Source: Eledone cirrhosa
Taxonomy: Eukaryota
DNA length: 64,000 bases
Reading direction: 5' to 3'
Assembly: GCA_964016885.1 (NCBI GenBank)
Contig: OZ024743.1
Coordinates: 55,056,001 to 55,120,000, forward strand
Shown: piece after piece, positions 3,044 through 63,499 of the stretch
Layout of the letters: every line of letters starts with the position of its first letter
How positions within the stretch are numbered: the stretch's first letter is position 1
Program-made: the position numbers and the translations under genes
The notes under the pieces: model-generated
The model's input: only the letters and a program-made list of their open reading frames with translations
Told to the model about the DNA's origin: nothing
Databases searched by the model: none

Positions 3044-3049
<6 letters not shown>

Positions 3050-3372
3050 CGTTTCTGAATTTGTTTAGCAAGATTCTTTATCTGAAAACGTGTGTTGAAA
3101 CCGATATTGTTATACTTTGGGAGGGTCATGTTGCCAATAAGAAACACACGCACCAGATGCTTTCACTTCAATTTATTATAATAAATTTATAAATTTAGGA
3201 ATTTATAAATTTCCGGTTGGTTAGTTGGTTCCACAACCGGATGGTTGTTTATATATTGTCAAAGTTCTTTCGTCACACATTCTGTGACCTCTTCAGTGAC
3301 TAGGGATTCTTTTCTTTGTTTTTGTGCCTCTCCTTTGTTCTGTCCTACGCCATTTTGTTTCTGTGTGTGTCA
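3044..3372 (-). mobile_element. Solo PLE pLTR plus ORF-start fragment between microsatellites
   Basis: Highly similar to 61957-62300 and encodes [29 protein letters not shown]. Confidence 0.9.
3258..3300 (-). ncRNA. Hammerhead ribozyme in a solo PLE pLTR copy
   Basis: GUCA-CUGAAGA-G-GUCACA gaaug UGUGAC-GAAA-GAAC-UU-UGAC. Confidence 0.8.
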
Positions 3373-8561: not shown

Positions 8562-8607
8562 GACATCTGATGAAGGCTGGAGAGTACATCAGCCGAAACG
8601 TTGTGTT
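8562..8607 (+). ncRNA. Hammerhead ribozyme (family 3)
   Basis: gacat CTGATGA a ggctg...cagcc GAAA CG TT gtgtt. Confidence 0.75.
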
Positions 8608-29054: not shown

Positions 29055-30104
29055 AGAGATGGAGAAAGAAAGAGAGAGTTTGTTATATATTGATTGAGGC
29101 AGAGAAAATATAGGTGGTGATATGGAAAGAAGGAAACGAGAAAAGAGAAAATGAGACAGAATCTAAGAAGAAAGAGAAGGAAAAAAACTGAAAACATAAA
29201 TGGACAGAAATCTGACTGAAGGAGATAAGGTAAAAAACTAGACAATAGTGGTAGCGATAAAGATGTGATGGCGGGAAGTCTCATAGTCTCGGCTAGAGTG
29301 TTCATCATTTGTAAAGATAGATAGATAAAAAGTAAAATAGATAAACAGAATGCTTAAAGTTAAAATATGTATCTAAATGAATAAAGAAATAAAAATGTAA
29401 AGAAATAATCAACTAAAAAAATACAATGAAGTTGACAGGAAGTTCTTCCGGTTTCGCTGGCAGCCATTGGTGCAGATCGGAGTGGGGGGAAAATGGACGT
29501 CTTCCTTGTGATTTGCCAGCAATCTCAGTTGTCAGATGCCTGATGGGAAAAGATGTGCTACAGTTGACCAGATCTAACTAGCTGACTAATACATCAATTT
29601 ATCGCTCGTCAGCTTCTTATCAGGTCATCATGTCACGTGTCACTGGTGAAATATAATGACACTACGACTACCTCAGTTCTGCGGCATGCGAACTTCTATG
29701 TTTTTATACCGGTCTCCGTACACGTACATACATATATGTATACAGACGTACAGTAGTATGTATATATATATACATACATGCACACATATATATATATATG
29801 TACGTATGGATTCACCGAACATTTATTATAATGCTCGGTGTGTTTGTAAACAAACATCCCGTATTAAGCCGTAGTGTCTAGCAACCATCGTAGCTCGTTT
29901 GTTCACTACGGCTTAATGCGGGATGTTTGTTTACAAACACACCGAGCATTATAATAAATGTTCGGTGAATCCATACGTATTTTTCCCGTTTATCGTTTTC
30001 GGTGCACTCAGCCGATTAACCCACTCGATATGCAAATTGGGCTACTCAGCCGTTAATATGCATAAGGTAAGTATATACGTTCAACAATCTGGCAGGAAGG
30101 TATA

Positions 30105-30145
30105 CGTTGCTGACGATAGCTAATAAGCTTGAAACTAGTACAGCG
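30105..30145 (+). ncRNA. Hammerhead ribozyme (family 4)
   Basis: cgttg CTGACGA t agct aata agct t GAAA CTAG TA cagcg. Palindromic ACUAGU stem III and a GUA cleavage triplet. Confidence 0.8.
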
Positions 30146-30349
30146 TTCCTTTGTCAGTGTTGAACAAACGAGCAACGATGGCTGCTAGACACTACGGCTT
30201 AATACGGGATGTTTGTATACAAACACACCGAGCATTATAATAAATGTTCGGTGAATCCATACGTACATATATATATGTGTGTGCATGTATGTATATATAT
30301 ATACATACTACTGTACGTCTGTATACATATATGTATGTACGTGTACATA

Positions 30350-36178: not shown

Positions 36179-36540
36179 AAAAAGTATGGCCCCGACAGCA
36201 GAGCTCAAGCCGTTTCGACGGCTATTTCCGGTCCAGAAATAGCCGTCGAAACGGCTTGAGCTCTGCCATCGGGCTAATTTTTTTTCCTATTTTCCACTCT
36301 ACTACCCTAAGTATTGAGTACTCTGGTGCGTTATGGTCTATCTGGTTCCTTCCCACAATTCCTTTGTTATATATATATATATATATATATTGTTATACTT
36401 TGGGAGGGTCATGTTGCCAATAAGAAACACACGCACTAGTTGCTTTCACTTCAATTTATTATAATAAATTTATAAATTTAGGAATTTATAAATTTCTGGT
36501 TGGTTGGTTGGTTCCACAACCAGATGATTGTTTATATATT

Positions 36541-36583
36541 GTCAAAGTTCTTTCGTCACACATTCTGTGACCTCTTCAGTGAC
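36541..36583 (-). ncRNA. Hammerhead ribozyme, left arm of the pLTR palindrome
   Basis: Same motif as 3258-3300. Confidence 0.8.
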
Positions 36584-36717
36584 TGGGGATTCTTTTCTTT
36601 GTTTTTGTGCCTCTCCTTTGTTCTGTCCTACGCCATCTTGTTTTTGTGTGACACACAAAAACAAGATGCCGTAGGGCAGAACAAAGGAGAGGCAAAAAAC
36701 AAAGAAAATAATCCACA

Positions 36718-36760
36718 GTCACTGAAGAGGTCACAGAATGTGTGACGAAAGAACTTTGAC
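36718..36760 (+). ncRNA. Hammerhead ribozyme, right arm of the pLTR palindrome
   Basis: gtca ctgaaga g gtcaca gaatg tgtgac gaaa gaac tt tgac. Confidence 0.8.
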
Positions 36761-37164
36761 AATATATGAACAATCGTCTGGTTGTGGAACCAACCAGCCA
36801 ACCGGAAATTTATAAATTCCTAAATTTATAATTTATAAATTTAATTTATAATAAATTTATTTAATTTATAATAAATTGAAGTGAAACAACTGTTGCGTGT
36901 GTTTCTTATTGGCAACAAAACCCTCCCAAAGTATAACAATATCGGTTTCAACACACGTTTTCAGATAAAGAATCTTGCTAAACAAATTCAGAAACGAAAT
37001 ATATATATATATATATAAATGAGCGGAACAAGTAAACATTAAACAATCTTTTAATATATATATATATATTTATTTATTTATATATAGATATATGCCCAAT
37101 CTCACTAATTCCAACCCACCCGTCCCTCAATCTATCTTCTCATTCTTATCTATTTCTCATTCTT

Positions 37165-43592: not shown

Positions 43593-43598
<6 letters not shown>

Positions 43599-43800
43599 CG
43601 TTTATGAATTTGTTTAGCAAGATTCTTTATCTGAAATCGTGTGTTGAAACCGATATTGTTATACTTTGGGAGGGTCATGTTGCCAATAAGAAACACACGC
43701 ACCAGTTGCTTTCACTTCAATTTATTATATATTTATAAATTTATAAATTTATAAATTTACAAATGTGTTTCTTATTGGCAACATGACCCTCCCAAAGTAT

Positions 43801-43807
<7 letters not shown>
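43593..43807. mobile_element. Short fold-back PLE pLTR fragment within (TA)n
   Basis: 43593-43762 matches the pLTR/ORF start; 43764-43807 is an inverted copy of part of it. Confidence 0.9.
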
Positions 43808-43848
<41 letters not shown>

Positions 43849-55820: not shown

Positions 55821-56380
55821 TCAGCACACACACACACACGCATATACATACATACCCACACACACATGCATACATGCATTCATACATACACACATACATT
55901 CATACATACATACCCACACACATACATACACACATACACACATAATATATAATTACATACATACAAACGGACACAAATACATACATACATACATACACAC
56001 ACTCACATAACACACAGATATACACACATCCACACATATCACACATATATATACATGCTCAGGTAACGTCATGGCATCAGGTGTGAATGTCCATTTCGAT
56101 GAGACAGCTTTCAGTTGACGGTAATGTATTACATACTTGTATGCAAATTACAGAAATAATACAATACAGAGGCGTACACATGTGTGTGTTTGTATGTGTG
56201 TTTATATCTATGTATTAATGTGTGTTTCTATATACCTAGGTATCAGTTAGTGGTGTAAGACTGTACATACATGTATGAATGTGGGTGTAACTATAGCTGT
56301 GTACGTGTGTGTCTGCGTCTAGGTATGGAAAGGTTTGTTATGTTATATATATATATATATATATATATACAAATATAATT

Positions 56381-56549
56381 GTTTCTACTTTTGGCACAAG
56401 GCCAGCAATTAACCAGTGCATTACTGGTACTTTATTTTATCGACCTCCGTAAGGATGAAAGGCAAAGTTAACCTCGGCGCGATTTGAACTCTGAATGGCA
56501 AGGGGCGTAACTCTATACGTCAAAGCATAGTGTCCAACCCTCTACCGAT
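56381..56549 (-). mobile_element. Family A SINE
   Basis: Consensus match; the head end is truncated at a TA tract. Confidence 0.8.
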
Positions 56550-56559
56550 ATATATATAG

Positions 56560-57373
56560 AAATATAATTTCAGTGAGATCGTATTTCGGCGGTGGCCAAA
56601 AACAAAACGAAACGCAATCTTCGAGATATGCGGCAAGCGCTCAATGGACTAAAAGAAGACCAGAGCAATTAACATACGTTATAAAGGCCAGACAAAATGA
56701 AAACAGTAGTCGTGAAGCCATCAGCCACCGGAGCCAAAAAAACGAAGCAAGGTAAACAGGTTAACAAAAGAATTTACCTGGACCTCCTGGAAATTGTTGG
56801 TAAAATCCAGTGGGAGGTTTCTGTGACTTCTAAATCAATTATACTGCCTGCTTTCGTTGTAAGCTGTTGGTATAACGATCGAACAAGACAGCTATTTCGT
56901 CAACAGGTATTTTGTTCTCATCCGGCCAGCGGGTTCCAATACAGTAGTAATGGTGGAGTGACTACCCCACGTGTTTACCCTGCGAGGGATGTAACCCCGG
57001 TTTTAGGCAGATGCATTCAAAATGTGTAAATGTATTGCAAAAATTGCAAAACACTGCGCAAATCGAAGTCAGCTCTCAACCGGATTATTTTAAAATAAAC
57101 TTAAGCAATCAATTAGTCAATAGAATTGTCTAATTGAATTAACTAATTAATTGCTAAACCCGGGAAATTAATACAAATATAATTTCAGCGAGATCGTATT
57201 TCGGCGGTGGCCAAAACAAAACGAAACGCAATATTCGAGATATGCAGCAAGCGCTCAATTAACTAAAAGAAGACCAGAGCAATTAACATACGTTATAGAG
57301 ACCAGACAAAATGAAGACAGTAGTCGTGAAGCCATCAGCCACCAGGGCCAAAAAAACGAAGCAAGGTAAACAG
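56560..57373. mobile_element. Non-coding element with ~200 bp direct terminal repeats, inserted in (TA)n
   Basis: Repeats at 56560-56759 and 57175-57373, with gatatatatata on both flanks. A diverged relative lies at 2640-2960 (reverse). Confidence 0.8.
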
Positions 57374-57792
57374 ATATATATATAATGAAAAATAAAGGTT
57401 ACGGGCGAAAGAGAGGAGTATCCGTCATCAGTTGAAGGGGGGGGGGGACATGTAAATCAGAATAGAATCAGTTTTAAACTAGTTAGACCATTACTCAACA
57501 GGGTACTCGATAATAGAGTTGGTAGAGTATAGCTATATAATAAAGAATCGGAGCCGACGGCTGAGCTCTTGCCGATTCAACAGCTAATTCTCTATATATA
57601 TACATATATGCAGAGGTTATATTTAATTTGTTGGGATTCAACAAGCTTAAAAAATGTTTATAACTGATATAAAGCACTCAACAAATAAGTGGAGTAAATA
57701 CACAATATATTAATATTCCACTATCCATGAAGATCCAACCGTTCAGGTTGTTTTTTTCCGGGTATGGCAATATATATTTATTAAAAAATCTG

Positions 57793-57858
57793 TATTTTAT
57801 CTGATGAAAGCGCACCATAATTTGGATTGGTTGCCCTTGAAATATATATAATAAAATA
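57793..57858 (+). ncRNA. Hammerhead ribozyme (family 2, second copy)
   Basis: tattttat CTGATGA ... GAAA TATATA TA ataaaata. Perfect 8-bp stem I; stem II is weak. Confidence 0.65.
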
Positions 57859-57926
57859 ATATGGTTTTATAAATATAGTTTCCATTTATTAATTTATTGC
57901 ATATACATATATATATATATATATAT

Positions 57927-58228
57927 ATATTGTTATACTTTGGGAGGGCCATGTTGCCAATAAGAAACACACGCACCAGTTGCTTTCACTTCAATTTATT
58001 ATATATTTATAAATTTATAAATTTACAAATCTACAAACTTATAAATTTCTGGTTGGTTGGTTGGTTCCACAACCAGATAGTTGTTTATATATAGTCATAG
58101 TCCTTTCGTCACACACTCTGTGACCTCTTCAGTGACTGGGGATTCCTTTCTTTGTTTCTGTGCCTTTCCTTTCTTCTATCCTACGCCATTTTGTTTCTGT
58201 GTGTGTGTTGTGTGCTCAGTTTGCGCAT
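57927..58228 (-). repeat. 3' pseudo-LTR of the PLE
   Basis: Direct repeat of 62017-62319 at an offset of about 4091 bp, essentially identical. Confidence 0.95.
58093..58137 (-). ncRNA. Minimal type I hammerhead ribozyme (PLE 3' pLTR)
   Basis: Minus strand reads AGUCA-CUGAAGA-G-GUCACA gagug UGUGAC-GAAA-GGAC-UA-UGACU, giving the core, stem II and stem I pairing. Confidence 0.85.
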
Positions 58229-58367
58229 GCGCCACATCCGGGTGTCTGTGTGTGTTTGTGTTCATTTATCTATTTGTTTATTTATTTATTTATTTATTGT
58301 TGGTTGGTTGTTTGTTCTATGTGTGAGTGTGTTTTCATTTTGTCCTGTGTGTGTTTTCATTTTGTCC

Positions 58368-61067
58368 TTAATTGTAAGTTGTGATGTTGCTGTTCCACTC
58401 ATATTTTCTGTTTAATTTTGGTTGTAATTCTTTTATGCTTCCTGCCTCTGTAATTTGCCTAAACATTGCATCTTTTCTGTGTGTGGATTCTATTTTTATT
58501 TCTATGTTCTCTAATCTACCCCTGTGTTCTATCTTAGCATGTTGGTAGAGCACAGATGATTCTTTATTATCTTGAAGGTCTCGCCAGTGTTCATTTATTC
58601 GTTCCCCTATACTACGAGCTGTCTCACCTATGTACACTATATTTTTGTTTCTACATTGTCCTTCAGTACATCTTATGCTATGCACTACATTTCTAGTTTT
58701 ACAGTTAATATGGGGGCTTATTTTACAGGTTATACATTTGTTATCTATACATGAGGGTCTTTGGAACGGGTATGTCTTGCTAATAAGTGTTTTTATGGAG
58801 GTACCTGGTCTTTCTACTATCTTAATATTGAGTTTATGTTTATTTAGGGCCCTTCTAAATTTGTAGGCTAGTTCGCCTCTAGGGGTTGTATTGATGAACA
58901 TTACACTCTGGTATTTATTGCTATCATACCATGAGTTTATTCTATTGGCCTTGTTCCTAGTTCTTTCTATTCTATTCCAAAATTTGCTCCTGTACAAGGG
59001 GCAGGTCCCATTTATGTCATTATTTACCATTTTTTCCCATTTGGTTCTGGCTCCTTTATACACTCTGATTCTATCTCTCTGATTGTAGCCAGAGAACTGC
59101 ATACGGTGGATGAAGTGTTGTATGTGTCTCTCTAGTTCTTCGGGGTTGCACATGCGGGACACATTTCTCATCACCCGTACCAAATCCGCAATCAGTATGT
59201 TGATTTTGGTATGGTCCGAAATGGCCGAGTTTCGGTGGATCAGATGTTTGGAAGTCATGGGTTTGGCATAATGGGAATGGAGGATTTGTTTTTGGTTGTT
59301 AATGGTATCTAACCAGAGCTCTGTGTCTAGTACAGGTAATCGATGGTTGGGGTGTCTACTTGGGTAGTCTATAGTAACTCTAATGCTCTGGTGGGTGGAG
59401 TTTGCTATTTGCTGGATGCTTTCCATTGTGTTTTTCTCTAGTTCCTGACTGTTCTTTAGTGGGGGTGTCTTAACTACGATGTTTATATCATCTACGTAGC
59501 GGGAGTACATTATCAGGGTTAAGCTGTTTTCTAATTGTTCTTTAAGTTTTTGTTTAAGTCTACAGTCCCACCATACCATGAATAGGTTAGCTATGTCGCC
59601 TGCAATGCTAACACCAATGGCTGCTCCTTCCTCTTGGGCATATGTTTTACCATTAAATTTGAACATATGTTCCTTAAGGGTTAATTTTATGCTGGCCCCT
59701 ACCGCATGTGCAATCATTTTCTTCAGTTCATCGTGGTTTTCGGGTGTCCGTATGGCTCTGGTCCACCCGTTCCATCTATCTGTGTGGGTTTTCTTGGCCA
59801 TTGAGGTAATGGTAGGTGGTCTGCCTCTTGCTGGTCTTGTAGGGCACAGGTTGCTAAGGTCATAAGTGTCTAGGTAACTATTACTATGGGTAAGCTTAAG
59901 TAGAAGTCCCAGCTCACTGGTATCAATCCCACGGAACTCAACCTTGCTCTCGCTGATAATTTCTACGCATTTCTCCACAGCAAAATCCACGTCAATAGAT
60001 GGATACAGGGACACAATATCCATACTGCCTATTATGCAGTTTGTTAGGTCCCCAGATCGGTTACCCGCGCCGATTCTGCGGAGGAGGTCCTCCGTGCTGT
60101 CACATACATCTGGGGACATCTCAATAATGGGGCGTATGATCAGGGAGAGGAAGTAGGACAGTCTGTAGTTACTAGCAATGTTAGCCCCACAGACTGGCCG
60201 TGTTAGTGGTCCCGCGACAGGGTTCCAGCCCGTTTTATGGTCTTTTCGAAGCCCATACAACGCCGGCACGTCATTGTTCCAGACCTGGAAGTTGTTGGCA
60301 GTCCTTTTGTTGGGCTGCATTATATTCGTCCACATCACCATATGGGCATTGAGGGCTTTTTCTCTATCCTCATGCTCCTGTGGTGTTACCTCTCTTGTGT
60401 TAGTGATGTGGGGTTGCATTGCCTGGATGTAGTTTGGCAGGCTGTCAACCGACATTCTGCCAGACTTGTCTGTTGGAAAACATGCTATCTCTCCATTACG
60501 CGAGCGCTGCATGAGCTTACGCAAGCCATTTGCAGATTTTTCTCCCAGTTGCTGGGCCTCTATTCTATTATGCTTCTTGCTATACTGTTCTATAATATTT
60601 CTAAGTTCTGATTCAGCTATACTAAATTGTGCTTCTGTTTGTTCATCGACCTGCGACGGCAACTGCGTGCGTTTGTTAAATGGCAAAGTCGTGGCGTGGA
60701 CTCGTCGCAGGTCGAATGATTTATCGGAGGGATTATAAAACGGAGAGTTCCAGGCTGCTGCTTTATGTGTACTAGTGCTATTGTTATTGTTAGTTGTGTT
60801 GTTTCTATTTCTATTTCCACCAACAGCCTCATGGTTGTTTCTATGTCTCTCATAATTACTCCTGTCTCTTTCCACTGGCTCAATGTTGTTATCTACCCTA
60901 TTTTGTGTGTCTGTGTGTTCGTCTTGGTTATTCTCTTTGTCCTTAGTTTCCCATCTCCTTTTCCTTTTAATCCTATTACTTTCCCTTATTTCTCTGATTT
61001 CTGTGCTACTGTCATTACTTGTTTTCTGTGTCTGTGTGTTTGTTAAGATTGTGGTGGTGAGAGGCAT
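58368..61067 (-). CDS. PLE polyprotein: reverse transcriptase, Cys-rich linker and C-terminal GIY-YIG endonuclease
   Basis: RT motifs TDKSG, LYGLRKDHK, RPV, SMDIVSLYPSID, FNGKTYAQEEGAAIG, YSRYVDDI. Linker CIDNKCITC. Endonuclease VVHSIRC..C..VYIGETARSIGERINEH..H..EA..I...P.LN. Confidence 0.95.
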   Translation of the reverse strand: MPLTTTILTNTQTQKTSNDSSTEIREIRESNRIKRKRRWETKDKENNQDEHTDTQNRVDNNIEPVERDRSNYERHRNNHEAVGGNRNRNNTTNNNNSTSTHKAAAWNSPFYNPSDKSFDLRRVHATTLPFNKRTQLPSQVDEQTEAQFSIAESELRNIIEQYSKKHNRIEAQQLGEKSANGLRKLMQRSRNGEIACFPTDKSGRMSVDSLPNYIQAMQPHITNTREVTPQEHEDREKALNAHMVMWTNIMQPNKRTANNFQVWNNDVPALYGLRKDHKTGWNPVAGPLTRPVCGANIASNYRLSYFLSLIIRPIIEMSPDVCDSTEDLLRRIGAGNRSGDLTNCIIGSMDIVSLYPSIDVDFAVEKCVEIISESKVEFRGIDTSELGLLLKLTHSNSYLDTYDLSNLCPTRPARGRPPTITSMAKKTHTDRWNGWTRAIRTPENHDELKKMIAHAVGASIKLTLKEHMFKFNGKTYAQEEGAAIGVSIAGDIANLFMVWWDCRLKQKLKEQLENSLTLIMYSRYVDDINIVVKTPPLKNSQELEKNTMESIQQIANSTHQSIRVTIDYPSRHPNHRLPVLDTELWLDTINNQKQILHSHYAKPMTSKHLIHRNSAISDHTKINILIADLVRVMRNVSRMCNPEELERHIQHFIHRMQFSGYNQRDRIRVYKGARTKWEKMVNNDINGTCPLYRSKFWNRIERTRNKANRINSWYDSNKYQSVMFINTTPRGELAYKFRRALNKHKLNIKIVERPGTSIKTLISKTYPFQRPSCIDNKCITCKISPHINCKTRNVVHSIRCTEGQCRNKNIVYIGETARSIGERINEHWRDLQDNKESSVLYQHAKIEHRGRLENIEIKIESTHRKDAMFRQITEAGSIKELQPKLNRKYEWNSNITTYN

Positions 61068-62043
61068 TGAATGCGTGTGTGTTGTTGTTGTTGATGTGTG
61101 TTGTTGTCTCCGTGTGTGTTATCGTTGTTGTGTGTGTTGTTATTGTTGTTTGTGTCTGCGTGTCTGTTGTTGTTGTATCTGGGTATGTTGCTATTGTTGT
61201 TGTTGTTGATGTGTGTGTTGTTGTTATTGTTGTTTGTGTCTGTGTGTCTGTTGTTGTTGGGATGTGTGTTGTATATGTGTGTGCGTATATTGTTGCTTTT
61301 GTTTTTGATGCTCCAGCGTAGTTTTGTAAATGATTTTTCTATTTCTGACAGACAACTAATCGTATTTACCTTCTTGAATGTCGCAAATTTGGGCGGCAGA
61401 CATAACACAGACATTTCATTATTATCTATTTCCGTGTTCCCATAGATGTTGGTATTTTTTTTTTGTTGTTGAACTCTTCTGATAATGAGGTGTCGGCCAT
61501 GTTGATACCGTCAATTTTGTCGGGATATCTATTGGTATACTCTATAGTATCCCGATTTAGCTTTGCCTGTTTAAGCCACTTTAATTTCTTGTTAAAGTGC
61601 TTATCACATTCTTGAGTAATGTACTGTTCTTCGGGGCGTATAAGGCTTATAAATATTAGTTTTTCTGTTGGTGTGGTGATTTTAGCTATTTCTTGCATTA
61701 GGTTACGCTTTTGTTTTTCTTGATGACTTAATTCTCTATAGATCTTCTTTTTTATGTTTTGAATTAAAGTTCGTTTTAGCCTATCTGCTTGTTTTTTGGT
61801 GAGTTGTAATCTTCTAACGTCGGTATTGATGGTGTTGGTGTAGATTCTAGAAGTGGTGCACAGCTTTATGAGGTGTAGTTGTCGAGATGTTATGGTTTTT
61901 CGTAGACAACAGAACATGGTGGTTTTCAGTATCTTGTTAGCCTGGCTAAGGCTTACGATATTTCGTTTCTGAATTTGTTTAGCAAGATTCTTTATCTGAA
62001 ATCGTGTGTTGAAACCGATATTGTTATACTTTGGGAGGGCCAT
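61043..62043 (-). CDS. N-terminal part of the PLE ORF, split by frameshifts (ORF pieces 61426-62043 and 61043-61414)
   Basis: ATG (MALPKYNN) lies inside the 5' pseudo-LTR. The frame changes near the T10 run at 61455-61464 into IYGNTEIDNNEMSVLCLPPKFA, and changes again within the (AAC)/(CA)-rich linker near 61030-61100. Confidence 0.75.
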
Positions 62044-62319
62044 GTTGCCAATAAGAAACACACGCACCAGTTGCTTTCACTTCAATTTATTATATATTTA
62101 TAAATTTATAAATTTACAAATCTACAAACTTATAAATTTCTGGTTGGTTGGTTGGTTCCACAACCAGATAGTTGTTTATATATAGTCATAGTCCTTTCGT
62201 CACACACTCTGTGACCTCTTCAGTGACTGGGGATTCCTTTCTTTGTTTCTGTGCCTTTCCTTTCTTCTATCCTACGCCATTTTGTTTCTGTGTGTGTGTT
62301 GTGTGCTCAGTTAGCGCAT
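62017..62319 (-). repeat. 5' pseudo-LTR of the PLE
   Basis: Direct repeat of 57927-58228; contains the hammerhead and the ORF start. Confidence 0.95.
62184..62228 (-). ncRNA. Minimal type I hammerhead ribozyme (PLE 5' pLTR)
   Basis: Identical to 58093-58137. Confidence 0.85.
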
Positions 62320-62339
62320 CAAGAAAGAATCCCAAAAGG

Positions 62340-63217
62340 CGTGGTTATAAGAGGCTTAGCTCTGTTTCTCGACCGTTATATCGCGTGACTGTCTCCCCCT
62401 CCGCCTTTTGGGATTCTTTCTCACGTCGTGTAGACGCGTTCTTGAGACTAGTAAAATGAGGTATCCTCTTGATAAGTCGGCAGACCTCGCAAGGACTCTA
62501 TATCTTTGATATATTGTTTTTGTTTATGCCACGAAACTACGTAGTCGAGGAATTTAGGAACAGTTTAGGTATGATACATTTTATTACTAATTATATCTAA
62601 ATGTTTCTTCTCTCTTCATAATGTATTTTTAACTCTGATACTGGTTCAGTCTGGTTCAAACTGAATTGGTCTGTCCCAGTCATTCATTGAGCAACATCGG
62701 TGAAGTTGGCACCCTTAACTCACAGTTGGGTGCGGATGCATTCATGTATATATGTGTGTGTCCGCATGTATCTGTGTGTTTCTAAATATATTAATAACTC
62801 CCTCTGGTCGAGCAATCTTTGAAGTGTGGGGACAACTGGAAAGCTTCCATTACTCATACTTCTCGCCTTCTTCACTACCTCTTCTACGGCCTCGATATGA
62901 ATACCCCCTCCGCCTCCGTGGTATTTTCTTCGTGGTTATAAGAGGCTTAGCTCTGTTTCTCGACCGTTATATCGCGTGACTGTCTCCCCCTCCGCCTTTT
63001 GGGATTCTTTCTCACGTCGTGTAGACGCGTTCTTGAGACTAGTAAAATGAGGTATCCTCTTGATAAGTCGGCAGACCTCGCAAGGACTCTATATCTTTGA
63101 TATATTGTTTTTGTTTATGCCACGAAACTACGTAGTCGAGGAATTTAGGAACAGTTTAGGTATGATACATTTTATTACTAATTATATCTAAATGTTTCTT
63201 TTCTCTTCATAATGTAT
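62340..63217. repeat. 287-bp direct repeat with a 591-bp period, adjoining the PLE 5' end
   Basis: 62340-62626 matches 62931-63217 (one mismatch seen) and ends at a (TA)n tract. Confidence 0.92.
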
Positions 63218-63499
63218 ATATATATATAGTAATAATAATAAATTTGAAGACTAAAATCCAAAGATGACTCGATAAGGATAAATATATATCAAATATATAA
63301 GAACCGTAGACCAAATATTTATTAAAATAACAGATTAAAGTTTAAGCAAAGAATCGCTGCTTTCTCCCTTAACGGGATCTTCTGAAATTAAGAGTGAAAG
63401 GAGTGATTCTTTGCTTAAACTTTAACCTGTTATTTTAATATATATATATATAGTAATAATGACTATGATGACTAAAACCCGAAGAGGGTTCGAAAAGGA

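What the first reader, a model, noticed from the sequence alone, without database searches (positions are those of the whole stretch)
57927..62319. Young, near-intact hammerhead-bearing Penelope-like element (Naiad-like) inserted at (TA)n
Seen: RT plus CxxxxCxxC linker plus C-terminal GIY-YIG, essentially identical pseudo-LTRs, a hammerhead in each pLTR, and the ORF start inside the pLTR. Known: PLEs carry pLTRs and minimal hammerheads. Inference: KDHK/RPVC/MQFSGY and the Cys linker point to the Naiad clade, and pLTR identity suggests a recent insertion. It is a plausible source of RT/EN for the many non-autonomous pieces in this window.
Basis: partly seen in the sequence, partly recalled or inferred. 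Interest (0 to 1): 0.75.

Follow-up and report, generated by a model that had tools for sequence, protein, structure and literature searches.

The report
Penelope retroelement with telomerase-sized finger insert
This is a young but already broken copy of an abundant Penelope-like jumping gene that sits in TA repeats; it is not the Naiad type, and its copying enzyme carries a conserved extra piece of about 70 amino acids at the spot where telomerase has one, which likely marks a branch of these elements not yet described.

Summary
The element is real: a 4393-bp minus-strand Penelope-like element (PLE) with 302-bp pLTRs (1 mismatch), a minimal hammerhead in each, RT, Cys linker and C-terminal GIY-YIG. 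It is not a Naiad: Naiads have an N-terminal endonuclease, DKA and no canonical hammerhead. This copy has two frameshifts and a GIY Tyr-to-His change, so it is unlikely to be a source; 7 of 35 full-length copies examined are intact. (TA)n targeting holds (51 of 55 ends). Copies end at two AATAT sites 60 nt apart, and 15 of 16 two-armed insertions use one site per arm, suggesting microhomology-assisted internal priming. The RT has a conserved ~70-aa insert between motifs A and B' (spacing 129-138 aa in 90 of 90 scorable relatives; 58-63 in Nematis-like and Neptune-like sets). Its bearers (named ones: octopus, sea cucumber, jellyfish) form a 100/100 branch whose sister is unresolved; no Naiad, Poseidon, Coprina or nematode Nematis row was in the tree. 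I found no description in 8 paper searches, but Repbase, Dfam and Arkhipova 2006 were not available. This scan noted the same insert before, on other DNA of this genome (e1-9508900).

The parts
57901..57930 (.). (TA)n target run at the element's 3' end; its last four bases overlap the element's terminal ATAT (microhomology)
57927..58228 (-). 3' pseudo-LTR, 302 bp; ends at the first AATAT site (unit position 302, no tail)
58093..58137 (-). Type I minimal hammerhead in the 3' pLTR; predicted cut after 58098; stem III self-complementary with tandem G-A, so predicted to work as a dimer
   Evidence: motif type as in PMC4209133; activity not tested
58229..58367 (-). Rest of the 3' UTR, not repeated at the 5' end of this copy
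58368..62043 (-). Single ORF of the family (1216-1260 aa in intact copies), here broken into three frames: 62043-61429 (205 aa from ATG), 61510-61046, 61118-58368 (916 aa)
58398..58691 (-). C-terminal GIY-YIG endonuclease with two Cys between GIY and YIG, His, Arg, Glu, Asn; GIY Tyr is His in this copy
   Evidence: compared by eye with Fig. S2 of PMC8557442; no Pfam GIY-YIG hit
58725..58751 (-). Cx4CxxC linker followed by a short (7-aa) spacer to the next Cys, Nematis-like in length
59085..60473 (-). Reverse transcriptase from the DKS motif through KDHK, RPVC, motif A (SMDIVSLYPS), motif B' (QEEGAAIG), YVDD to MQFSGY; best fold matches are telomerase RTs
59736..59924 (-). Conserved insert of about 65-70 aa between motifs A and B' (telomerase IFD position): ELGLYL, CPxR, G, P, T, R, W, P conserved; predicted two short helices and a long ordered loop
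60780..61310 (-). Asn/Thr/His-rich low-complexity coding stretch of variable length; holds the second frameshift near 61100
   Evidence: approximate limits
61455..61464 (-). A-run lengthened by 5 nt, first frameshift, private to this copy
61958..62017 (-). 60-nt 'tail' sequence between the two AATAT end sites (unit positions 302 and 362), inside the ORF start
62018..62319 (-). 5' pseudo-LTR (5'-truncated upstream tandem copy), holds the ATG at 62043
62184..62228 (-). Minimal hammerhead in the 5' pLTR; predicted cut after 62189, 130 nt inside the element's 5' end
62320..63217 (+). Adjacent, unrelated 591-bp tandem retrozyme family (1.5 units from 62340, preceded by a 20-nt inverted piece), head-to-head with the PLE, ending at (TA)n; U3-A8 hammerheads at 62464-62551 and 63055-63142
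3044..3370 (-). Short pLTR-only relative (91%), ends at the tail site in (TA)n
36387..37002 (.). Head-to-head pair of pLTR-only relatives (86-89%), one arm ending at each site, both in (TA)n
43593..43808 (.). Head-to-head pair of short pLTR ends, one arm ending at each site, both in (TA)n

Best explanation
This is a young, frameshifted copy of an abundant (TA)n-targeting Penelope-like retrotransposon with a C-terminal GIY-YIG endonuclease, whose reverse transcriptase carries a conserved ~70-aa insert between motifs A and B' that likely marks a distinct branch of PLEs outside Naiad. How it works. Shown: copies end at one of two AATAT sites 60 nt apart just after the start codon, lie against (TA)n, form partial tandems of variable length and often have an inverted second arm that ends at the other site. 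Inferred: protein from intact copies binds a tandem or circular RNA; the endonuclease nicks (TA)n; the freed TA end pairs with AUAU at one internal site and primes cDNA synthesis, which runs past one unit length and so creates the pLTR. A second priming on the opposite strand, probably by the other subunit of a dimer, uses the other site and gives the inverted arm and the one-sided tail. The hammerhead does not set either end and probably processes multimeric RNA as a dimer. The insert probably helps hold the primer-template junction, but this is a guess from its position, basic residues and conservation. It probably arose independently of the telomerase IFD.
For: Domain order and motifs: (EN after RT in 77 of 77 scorable relatives and 36 of 37; 43 and 108 not scorable). 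Fold: pLDDT 92.4; top 14 structural matches are telomerase RTs, best Z 15.2, rmsd 3.6, 357 aligned. Copies: 2052 exact matches to an RT 22-mer and 15,386 to a hammerhead 30-mer, controls 0; median pairwise divergence 2.0%, 7 of 35 full-length copies intact. Ends: 54 of 55 at the two sites; 51 of 55 TA-flanked against a 13.7% window background. Second sample: 26 of 27 ends at the two sites, 24 of those 26 TA-flanked. These are the only ATAT words between unit positions 229 and 666. 15 of 16 two-armed insertions use a different site on each arm, p 2.6e-4 against 50:50. Insert: A-to-B' spacing 129-138 in 90 of 90 scorable of 120 relatives and 120-156 in 50 of 51 scorable of 145 more distant ones. 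Spacing is 58-63 in 110 of 110 scorable Nematis-like and 61-63 in 116 of 116 scorable Neptune-like proteins. 14 insert positions are at least 75% conserved over 101 rows. Tree without the insert columns: 37 rows form one side of a branch, 100/100, stem 0.99 (repeated).
Against: The tree has no Naiad, Chlamys, Poseidon, Coprina, Athena, TERT or nematode Nematis row. The comparison groups were labelled by motif resemblance to a published alignment and gathered around octopus-type queries, so their tightness and separation are partly built in. The sister group is unresolved: insert+Nematis-like has support 80, and insert+Neptune-like is not rejected (p-AU 0.70; its best tree was 16.7 lnL higher than the quick free tree). 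Relatives were picked by likeness to the query, which inflates conservation. A TATATA just after the hammerhead (unit 226-228) is never used as an end, so microhomology alone does not choose the site. In the one PLE studied in vitro, initiation is at sites not homologous to the cut DNA (PMC11167929). The isolated hammerhead folds no better than shuffles. No activity, expression or binding was measured.
Confidence: 0.72

Rival explanations
1. The family is a divergent sub-branch of Nematis that gained an RT insert; it may already be catalogued under Nematis or as a plain 'Penelope' family.
For: Short linker: CxxC-to-Cys spacer 6-11 aa in 60 of 60 scorable proteins against 23-30 in 116 of 116 Neptune-like ones, like Nematis rows in Fig. 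S2. Extension between RT1 and RT2, and IVERPG resembling Nematis_Pp IVEKPG (by eye). Weak grouping with Nematis-like rows, SH-aLRT 80. Basal insert-bearers include DKG and KTHK/KVHK forms.
Against: The three published Nematis rows have SDK(G/R)GxF, KTHK, GLAMG and a 63-aa spacing. A family matching those traits lives in this same genome (L111), and that group is only 22% identical on average to the insert group. The insert group has DKS (80 of 82), KDHK (91 of 91) and GGAIG/GGPIG (110 of 113), with a stem of about 1 change per site.
Confidence: 0.3
2. It belongs to the paraphyletic Neptune/Coprina grade, where IFD-like inserts occur sporadically.
For: PMC8557442 section 12 finds Neptune paraphyletic with Coprina, and section 17 notes IFD-like regions in some Coprina. 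The insert+Neptune-like grouping is not rejected.
Against: Neptune-like proteins here have DKG, KIHK/KVHK, GTAMG, a 62-aa spacing and a long linker; mean identity to the insert group 20%.
Confidence: 0.15
3. It is a Naiad.
For: Cx2-5CxxC linker, (TA)n targeting and an insert at the IFD position are all Naiad traits (PMC8557442 section 6).
Against: EN is C-terminal; no N-terminal EN or CxC; DKS, not DKA; canonical hammerhead present. Motifs A and B' differ from Naiad rows (FDFSTLYT, GIPMG). The insert is about 70 aa against about 20 aa.
Confidence: 0.02
4. Priming is internal but homology-independent, as reported for the anole Poseidon element; the two sites are set by RNA structure or protein binding, and the ATAT overlap is incidental or only helps repair.
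For: PMC11167929 shows two start sites that define the tail and are not homologous to the cut DNA. A better TA match at unit 226-228 is unused. Both sites lie in or beside unpaired stretches of a predicted fold.
Against: Both sites end in the same AATAT and are the only ATAT words in 440 nt. The neighbouring retrozyme's two end sites also end in TAT/ATATAT.
Confidence: 0.3
5. The PLE arm and the adjacent retrozyme arm were inserted in one event, each primed from one strand of the same (TA)n, which would show this enzyme mobilising an unrelated retrozyme.
For: Head-to-head join with no TA between; both outer ends are canonical 3' ends in (TA)n; this copy ends at site 302 whereas 10 of 12 other one-armed copies end at the tail site.
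Against: The retrozyme copy is 99.9% identical to its siblings while the PLE copy is 1.25% from its nearest. The junction occurs once in the genome. None of the 24 other retrozyme loci or 38 PLE loci shows such a join. The PLE 5' end finishes in AT, as expected for an earlier junction with (TA)n into which the retrozyme later inserted.
Confidence: 0.2

Closest known systems
Nematis clade of C-terminal EN+ Penelope-like elements (as shown in PMC8557442 Figs S1, S2, S7)
   Same: RT then reduced Cx2-5CxxC linker then GIY-YIG with CCHH; extension between RT1 and RT2; pLTR, tail, hammerhead.
   Different: DKS, KDHK, RPVCG and GGAIG/GGPIG instead of DKG, KTHK, RPII and GLAMG; motif A-to-B' spacing 131 against 63; separate branch from Nematis-like proteins in my tree.
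Neptune clade (PMC8557442)
   Same: C-terminal EN, Cys linker, microsatellite targeting, hammerhead.
   Different: Linker spacer 7 against 23-30 aa; no GxAMG motif B'; 70-aa insert; about 20% RT identity.
Naiad clade (PMC8557442)
   Same: Cys linker, (TA)n targets, partial tandems and inverted arms, an insert at the IFD position.
   Different: EN is C-terminal, no CxC, DKS, canonical hammerhead present, insert about three times longer, different motifs A and B'.
Hydra clade (PMC8557442)
   Same: KDHK in RT1, DK(S/T), (TA)n targets, canonical hammerhead, C-terminal EN.
   Different: Has CCHH cysteines and Cx4CxxC (Hydra: CxCx5C, no CCHH); ordinary motif B'; longer element; 16% RT identity to a Hydra-type family of this genome.
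Poseidon of Anolis carolinensis, PAc (PMC11167929)
   Same: Two internal reverse-transcription start sites just inside the ORF define an optional tail; hammerhead does not set the ends; AT-rich targets.
   Different: Here the tail is 60 nt, both sites end in AATAT matching the (TA)n target, and the two arms of an insertion use different sites (the one-sided tail itself is described in PMC8557442 Fig. 2 legend).
Telomerase RT insertion-in-fingers domain (IFD)
   Same: Same position between motifs A and B' and similar spacing (131 against 118 in human and 152 in Tetrahymena TERT, counted by eye from Fig. S1); TERTs are the best fold matches.
   Different: No sequence likeness seen by eye; predicted helices plus loop with no beta sheet, whereas the TERT IFD-TRAP has beta strands (recalled). 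Probably independent.
Minimal hammerheads of metazoan PLEs (PMC4209133)
   Same: Type I, long helix II, short helix I, unpaired base before helix II, unstable self-complementary helix III.
   Different: None of note; helix III would pair in a dimer through tandem G-A.

Membership tests
Penelope-like elements (EN+) | Single ORF with telomerase-related RT and GIY-YIG endonuclease | tested here: met
   Intact 1216-1260 aa ORF in 7 of 35 copies; top fold matches are TERTs; GIY-YIG motifs by eye; weak GIY-YIG hit 1mk0, E 0.36; no Pfam GIY-YIG hit.
Penelope-like elements (EN+) | pLTRs from partial tandems, inverted 5'-truncated arms, optional tail | tested here: met
Penelope-like elements (EN+) | Retrotransposition activity of the protein | not testable with these tools
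   Only indirect: young copies, intact ORFs.
Naiad | GIY-YIG endonuclease N-terminal to RT | tested here: not met
   EN follows RT; no EN motif in 528 N-terminal residues of intact copy L026.
Naiad | CxC motif between EN and RT; DKG changed to DKA | tested here: not met
   No CxC; DKS in the query and in 80 of 82 scorable relatives.
Naiad | No canonical hammerhead | tested here: not met
   Canonical minimal hammerhead in both pLTRs; 64 of 90 copies identical.
Naiad | RT groups with Naiad/Chlamys in a tree | not tested
   No Naiad sequence could be retrieved.
Nematis | C-terminal EN with reduced Cx2-5CxxC linker and CCHH | tested here: met
   compared
Nematis | No insert between RT3(A) and RT4(B); DKG, KTHK and GLAMG as in the three published rows | tested here: not met
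   Spacing 131 against 63; DKS, KDHK, GAAIG.
Nematis | RT nests within the Nematis clade | tested here: inconclusive
   Outside a motif-labelled Nematis-like group, sister position unresolved; no nematode reference row.
Neptune | Long Cys linker (about 25-aa spacer) and canonical RT without IFD | tested here: not met
   Spacer 6-11 against 23-30; spacing 131 against 62.
Hydra | CxCx5C linker, no CCHH, divergent RT4, under 3 kb | tested here: not met
   Cx4CxxC, CCHH cysteines present, 4.1-kb unit (PMC8557442 section 11).
Penelope/Poseidon | No Cys linker between RT and EN | tested here: not met
   Linker present at 58751-58725.
Telomerase IFD | Homology or shared fold of the insert with TERT IFD/TRAP | tested here: inconclusive
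   Whole-RT match to TERT gives no residue-level alignment; predicted secondary structure lacks a sheet; insert not folded or searched alone.
Minimal type I hammerhead | Conserved core with helices I-III and NUH site | tested here: met
   helix III needs a 2-nt loop as monomer, self-pairs as dimer.
Minimal type I hammerhead | Self-cleavage | not testable with these tools
   Needs an in vitro or RNA-end assay.

The most novel reading that the evidence does not exclude
An undescribed, deep, superfamily-level PLE clade spread over cnidarians, molluscs and echinoderms combines a C-terminal GIY-YIG endonuclease with a telomerase-sized, independently gained fingers insert. It primes reverse transcription by pairing nicked (TA)n with two internal AUAU sites, one per subunit of an asymmetric dimer. 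This would break the published rule that canonical C-terminal-EN PLEs lack an IFD and give a natural system to test what a fingers insert does for priming on simple repeats.
Probability: 0.45. Interest if true: 0.65.

Novelty: new variant of a known kind. Interest (0 to 1): 0.5.

Why it matters
The copy itself is an ordinary dead PLE insertion. The family matters for three reasons. First, PMC8557442 states that canonical (C-terminal EN) PLEs lack the insertion-in-fingers domain, which otherwise links N-terminal-EN PLEs to telomerase; a large C-terminal-EN group with a telomerase-sized insert at that position changes how that character is read, whether it is a new clade or a Nematis offshoot. 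[quoted passage not shown] Third, intact young copies exist in this genome, so both points can be tested biochemically. These RTs are also nearly invisible to Pfam RVT_1 (below cut-off here), so they are probably under-annotated in marine invertebrate genomes.

Tried and rejected
Rfam scan: no hammerhead among the 150 of 313 rows shown; a descriptor scan found them. Programmed frameshift or intron as the reason for the split ORF: rejected, because 7 copies have one open frame and the breaks are private. A read-level check of whether the two frameshifts are real or assembly errors was not obtained, so this stays open; the +5 homopolymer gain is the more suspect. Expression: no RNA holder listed. 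ADAR-type hypermutation, suggested by earlier notes on this genome: not seen in the ORFs of the 35 copies (A>G at most 7 per copy); this copy's 7 T>C of 21 private changes are dispersed and not significant once 12 classes and 35 copies are allowed for. Hammerhead cleavage as the 5' or 3' boundary: rejected; ends lie 171 and 231 nt downstream of the predicted cut, and 5' ends vary. Naiad references from this genome: a primer and a degenerate motif found nothing, which does not show absence. PF26215 is not in the library. PDB sequence search gave only weak hits. The ESM Atlas gave generic PLE clusters, no clade name. Constrained hammerhead energy calculations failed and were dropped. Substitutions among 7 intact copies run 314 synonymous to 801 non-synonymous, near neutral, as expected for post-insertion changes; not informative. 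Rows left out: L050 from the two-arm count (its outer arm is an 82% relative; counting it gives 15 of 17), loci whose second end lay beyond the fetched stretch, P0415 from the tree (motif A not found), 20 rows dropped for the second tree. No paper describing this insert or clade in searches; Arkhipova 2006, Repbase, Dfam and the leaf names of Craig Fig. 8 could not be seen, and supplement sequences were cut at 400 characters.

Full report
Observation. The element runs on the minus strand from 62319 to 57927 (4393 bp; unit length 4091). Its direct repeats, 57927-58228 and 62018-62319, are 302 bp with one mismatch. A descriptor scan finds a type I minimal hammerhead in each (58137-58093, 62228-62184): 5-bp helix I, CUGAAGA plus an unpaired G, 6-bp helix II, GAAA, and a helix III that would need a 2-nt loop as a monomer but pairs with a second copy through tandem G-A. 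This is the min-HHR type of PMC4209133 (part 1 of 4 read). No hammerhead family appears in the 150 of 313 Rfam rows shown, and the isolated motif folds no better than shuffles. The start codon (62043) lies 26 nt inside the repeat. [quoted passage not shown] Pfam RVT_1 scores below its cut-off and GIY-YIG is not hit. An AlphaFold model from 101 aligned sequences (pLDDT 92.4) matches telomerase RTs best: top 14 rows, best Z 15.2, rmsd 3.6, 357 aligned; the EN part was barely tested.

Family and age. The host genome is 3.0 Gb. The closest named protein is from Octopus vulgaris at 68% identity, so a cephalopod host is likely but not established. I fetched the surroundings of the 39 other places among the 40 scored (of 1875 candidates); 34 hold a full-length ORF region. 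With the window copy, 7 of these 35 have one open frame of 1216-1260 aa. A sister subfamily at about 93% also has 1201-1318-aa frames. Pairwise divergence has a median of 2.0%. The window copy has 21 private substitutions in 3639 sites (0.58%) and its nearest copy is 1.25% away (a second search gave 99% at best). Exact matches number 2052 for an RT 22-mer and 15,386 for a hammerhead 30-mer, with controls at 0. The window copy has two frameshifts against the intact copies: +5 nt in an A run (61455-61464; none of the 34 others has it) and a 19-nt loss near 61100 in an Asn/Thr-rich stretch. Its GIY tyrosine is His (2 of 35 copies). As assembled it cannot make the full protein. Asn-rich stretches are known from rotifer Penelope ORFs (PMC3846280, passages).

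Ends and target. Of 55 3' ends in these loci, 54 fall at two sites, unit positions 302 and 362 (allowing for single-base changes at 301, 358, 361), both ending in AATAT. 51 of 55 are followed by (TA)n, against 13.7% of window positions by the same rule. An anchor on the hammerhead gives the same two sites (49 of 51 non-internal ends). A second sample of 20 loci, picked by a different pattern, gave 26 of 27 ends at these sites, 24 of the 26 in (TA)n. The sites are the only ATAT words between positions 229 and 666, though a TATATA at 226-228 is unused. In 15 of 16 two-armed insertions with both ends visible, one arm ends at 302 and the other at 362 (p 2.6e-4); 10 of 12 one-armed copies end at 362. 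The two short head-to-head relatives in this window follow the rule. The 60 nt between the sites is the PLE 'tail', described as often present at one end only (PMC8557442 section 6) and shown in vitro to lie between two internal RT start sites (PMC11167929, parts 1-2 of 4 read). In that element the start sites are not homologous to the cut DNA; here both match the target by at least 4 nt. The predicted hammerhead cut is 171 and 231 nt upstream of the two sites, and 5' ends vary, so cleavage sets neither boundary.

Clade. PMC8557442 (abstract, sections 3, 6, 11, 12, 15, 17, 22; supplement parts 1, 2, 53, 54, 57-59 of 59 and three term searches) defines Naiad by an N-terminal EN, a CxC motif, DKA and lack of a canonical hammerhead. 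This element fails all four. Of the C-terminal-EN clades, the linker is Nematis-like: spacer 6-11 aa in 60 scorable proteins, 23-30 in 116 Neptune-like ones. The RT fits none of them. The distance from motif A Asp to motif B' Gly is 131 aa here, 129-138 in all 90 scorable of 120 relatives and 120-156 in 50 of 51 scorable of 145 more distant representatives (one regex misfire, 94 not scorable). By eye from Figs S1 and S7 it is 63 in Nematis_Cr, 84 in Naiad-Amil, 118 in human TERT and 152 in Tetrahymena TERT. Nematis-like and Neptune-like families from this same genome and their relatives give 58-63 (110 of 110 scorable) and 61-63 (116 of 116). The insert has 14 positions conserved in at least 75% of 101 rows, and its mean conservation (0.51) equals that of the thumb (0.53). 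The group also shares DKS, KDHK and GGAIG/GGPIG, with basal members keeping DKG and KVHK/KTHK. Named members come from an octopus, a sea cucumber and a jellyfish; most are unnamed metagenome proteins. In a 357-column RT tree without the insert, 37 insert-bearers are one side of a branch at 100/100 with a stem of 0.99; a second tree with 21 Neptune-like rows agrees. The sister group is open: support 80 with Nematis-like rows, and the Neptune-like alternative is not rejected (p-AU 0.70). The tree lacks Naiad, Poseidon, Coprina, TERT and nematode Nematis, and its group labels rest on motif likeness. The predicted insert is two short helices and a long ordered loop without a sheet, unlike the beta-stranded TERT IFD-TRAP (recalled), so independent gain is more likely than descent from telomerase.

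Mechanism. Shown: the anatomy, the two end sites, the TA flanks, the one-site-per-arm rule and the defects of this copy. Inferred: protein from intact copies nicks (TA)n, the TA end pairs with AUAU at an internal site, and RT copies more than one unit from a tandem or circular RNA to give the pLTR. Opposite-strand priming at the other site gives the inverted arm, plausibly by a dimer (the anole protein is predicted dimeric, PMC11167929). The insert's role in holding primer and template is a guess.

Neighbour. The 5' end joins head-to-head a 591-bp tandem repeat with no detectable likeness to this element. It has a U3-A8 hammerhead (a known core variant, PMC4209133), two end sites of its own in (TA)n, and 99-100% identical copies elsewhere: a non-LTR retrozyme in the sense of bioRxiv 10.64898/2026.07.22.740005 (abstract and section 14 read). 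The junction is unique. A later insertion into the same TA run fits the age gap best; a joint insertion is not excluded.

Novelty. Eight paper searches found no description of a C-terminal-EN PLE group with this insert; PMC8557442 says canonical PLEs lack the IFD and notes IFD-like regions only in some Coprina. PMC13282606 and PMC12602865 (passages) add nothing on clade. Arkhipova 2006, Repbase, Dfam and the leaf names of Fig. 8 were not visible, so the group may be catalogued under another label. After reaching this result I found an unreviewed note of this scan reporting the same insert on other DNA of this genome; it is not independent support. Verdict: a real, young, dead copy of a PLE family; not Naiad; member of a probably undescribed insert-bearing branch. 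New variant of a known kind, interest 0.5.

Noticed in passing
window 62340-63217 (+); L117-L141: Very young 591-bp tandem retrozyme family with a U3-A8 hammerhead (long helix II, palindromic helix III, GUC site); arrays of up to at least 10 units; in 9 of 9 two-armed insertions the second arm ends 165 nt further than the first, a much longer tail than usual. Its autonomous partner was not sought.
   Followed up: partly
window 8562-8607 (+) and 30104-30146 (+): Two further minimal hammerheads of unrelated families; the second resembles the Hydra-type core (CUGACGAU...UGAAAC) listed in File S2 of PMC8557442.
   Followed up: no
window 57780-57900: The left flank is itself the end of another repeat (a similar stretch flanks locus L021) with a weak hammerhead-like core at 57793-57858; several elements stack into the same TA run.
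   Followed up: no
window 63315-63445: 58-bp-arm fold-back between TA runs; the same sequence flanks a copy of this PLE in L030, so it is another small dispersed repeat end.
   Followed up: no
L111 1714-4431 (+): Young Nematis-like PLE family in this genome (SDKGKEF, KTHK, 905-aa open frames in many copies) whose linker has lost one Cys (CxxxxCP).
   Followed up: partly
L091, L093, L094; L115 1819-3960 (+): Intact-looking Neptune-type (three families) and Hydra-type PLEs: at least four PLE lineages appear recently active in this genome.
   Followed up: partly
L161 1794-3662, L160 2006-3141, L053 3830-4321: Further PLE families only 68-71% identical to this one at DNA level, probably other insert-bearing families in the same genome.
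   Followed up: no
L143 286-9424: Full tandem of two identical-looking 4423-bp units of the 93% sister subfamily, both with 1318-aa open frames.
   Followed up: no
P0201, P0220, P0245, P0251, P0258: Basal insert-bearing RTs with DKG and even longer, charged inserts (spacing 138-156).
   Followed up: partly
window 56545-56759 and 57160-57373: Direct repeat pair 614 bp apart (94%), likely another small partial-tandem element next to (TA)n at 56344-56377.
   Followed up: no
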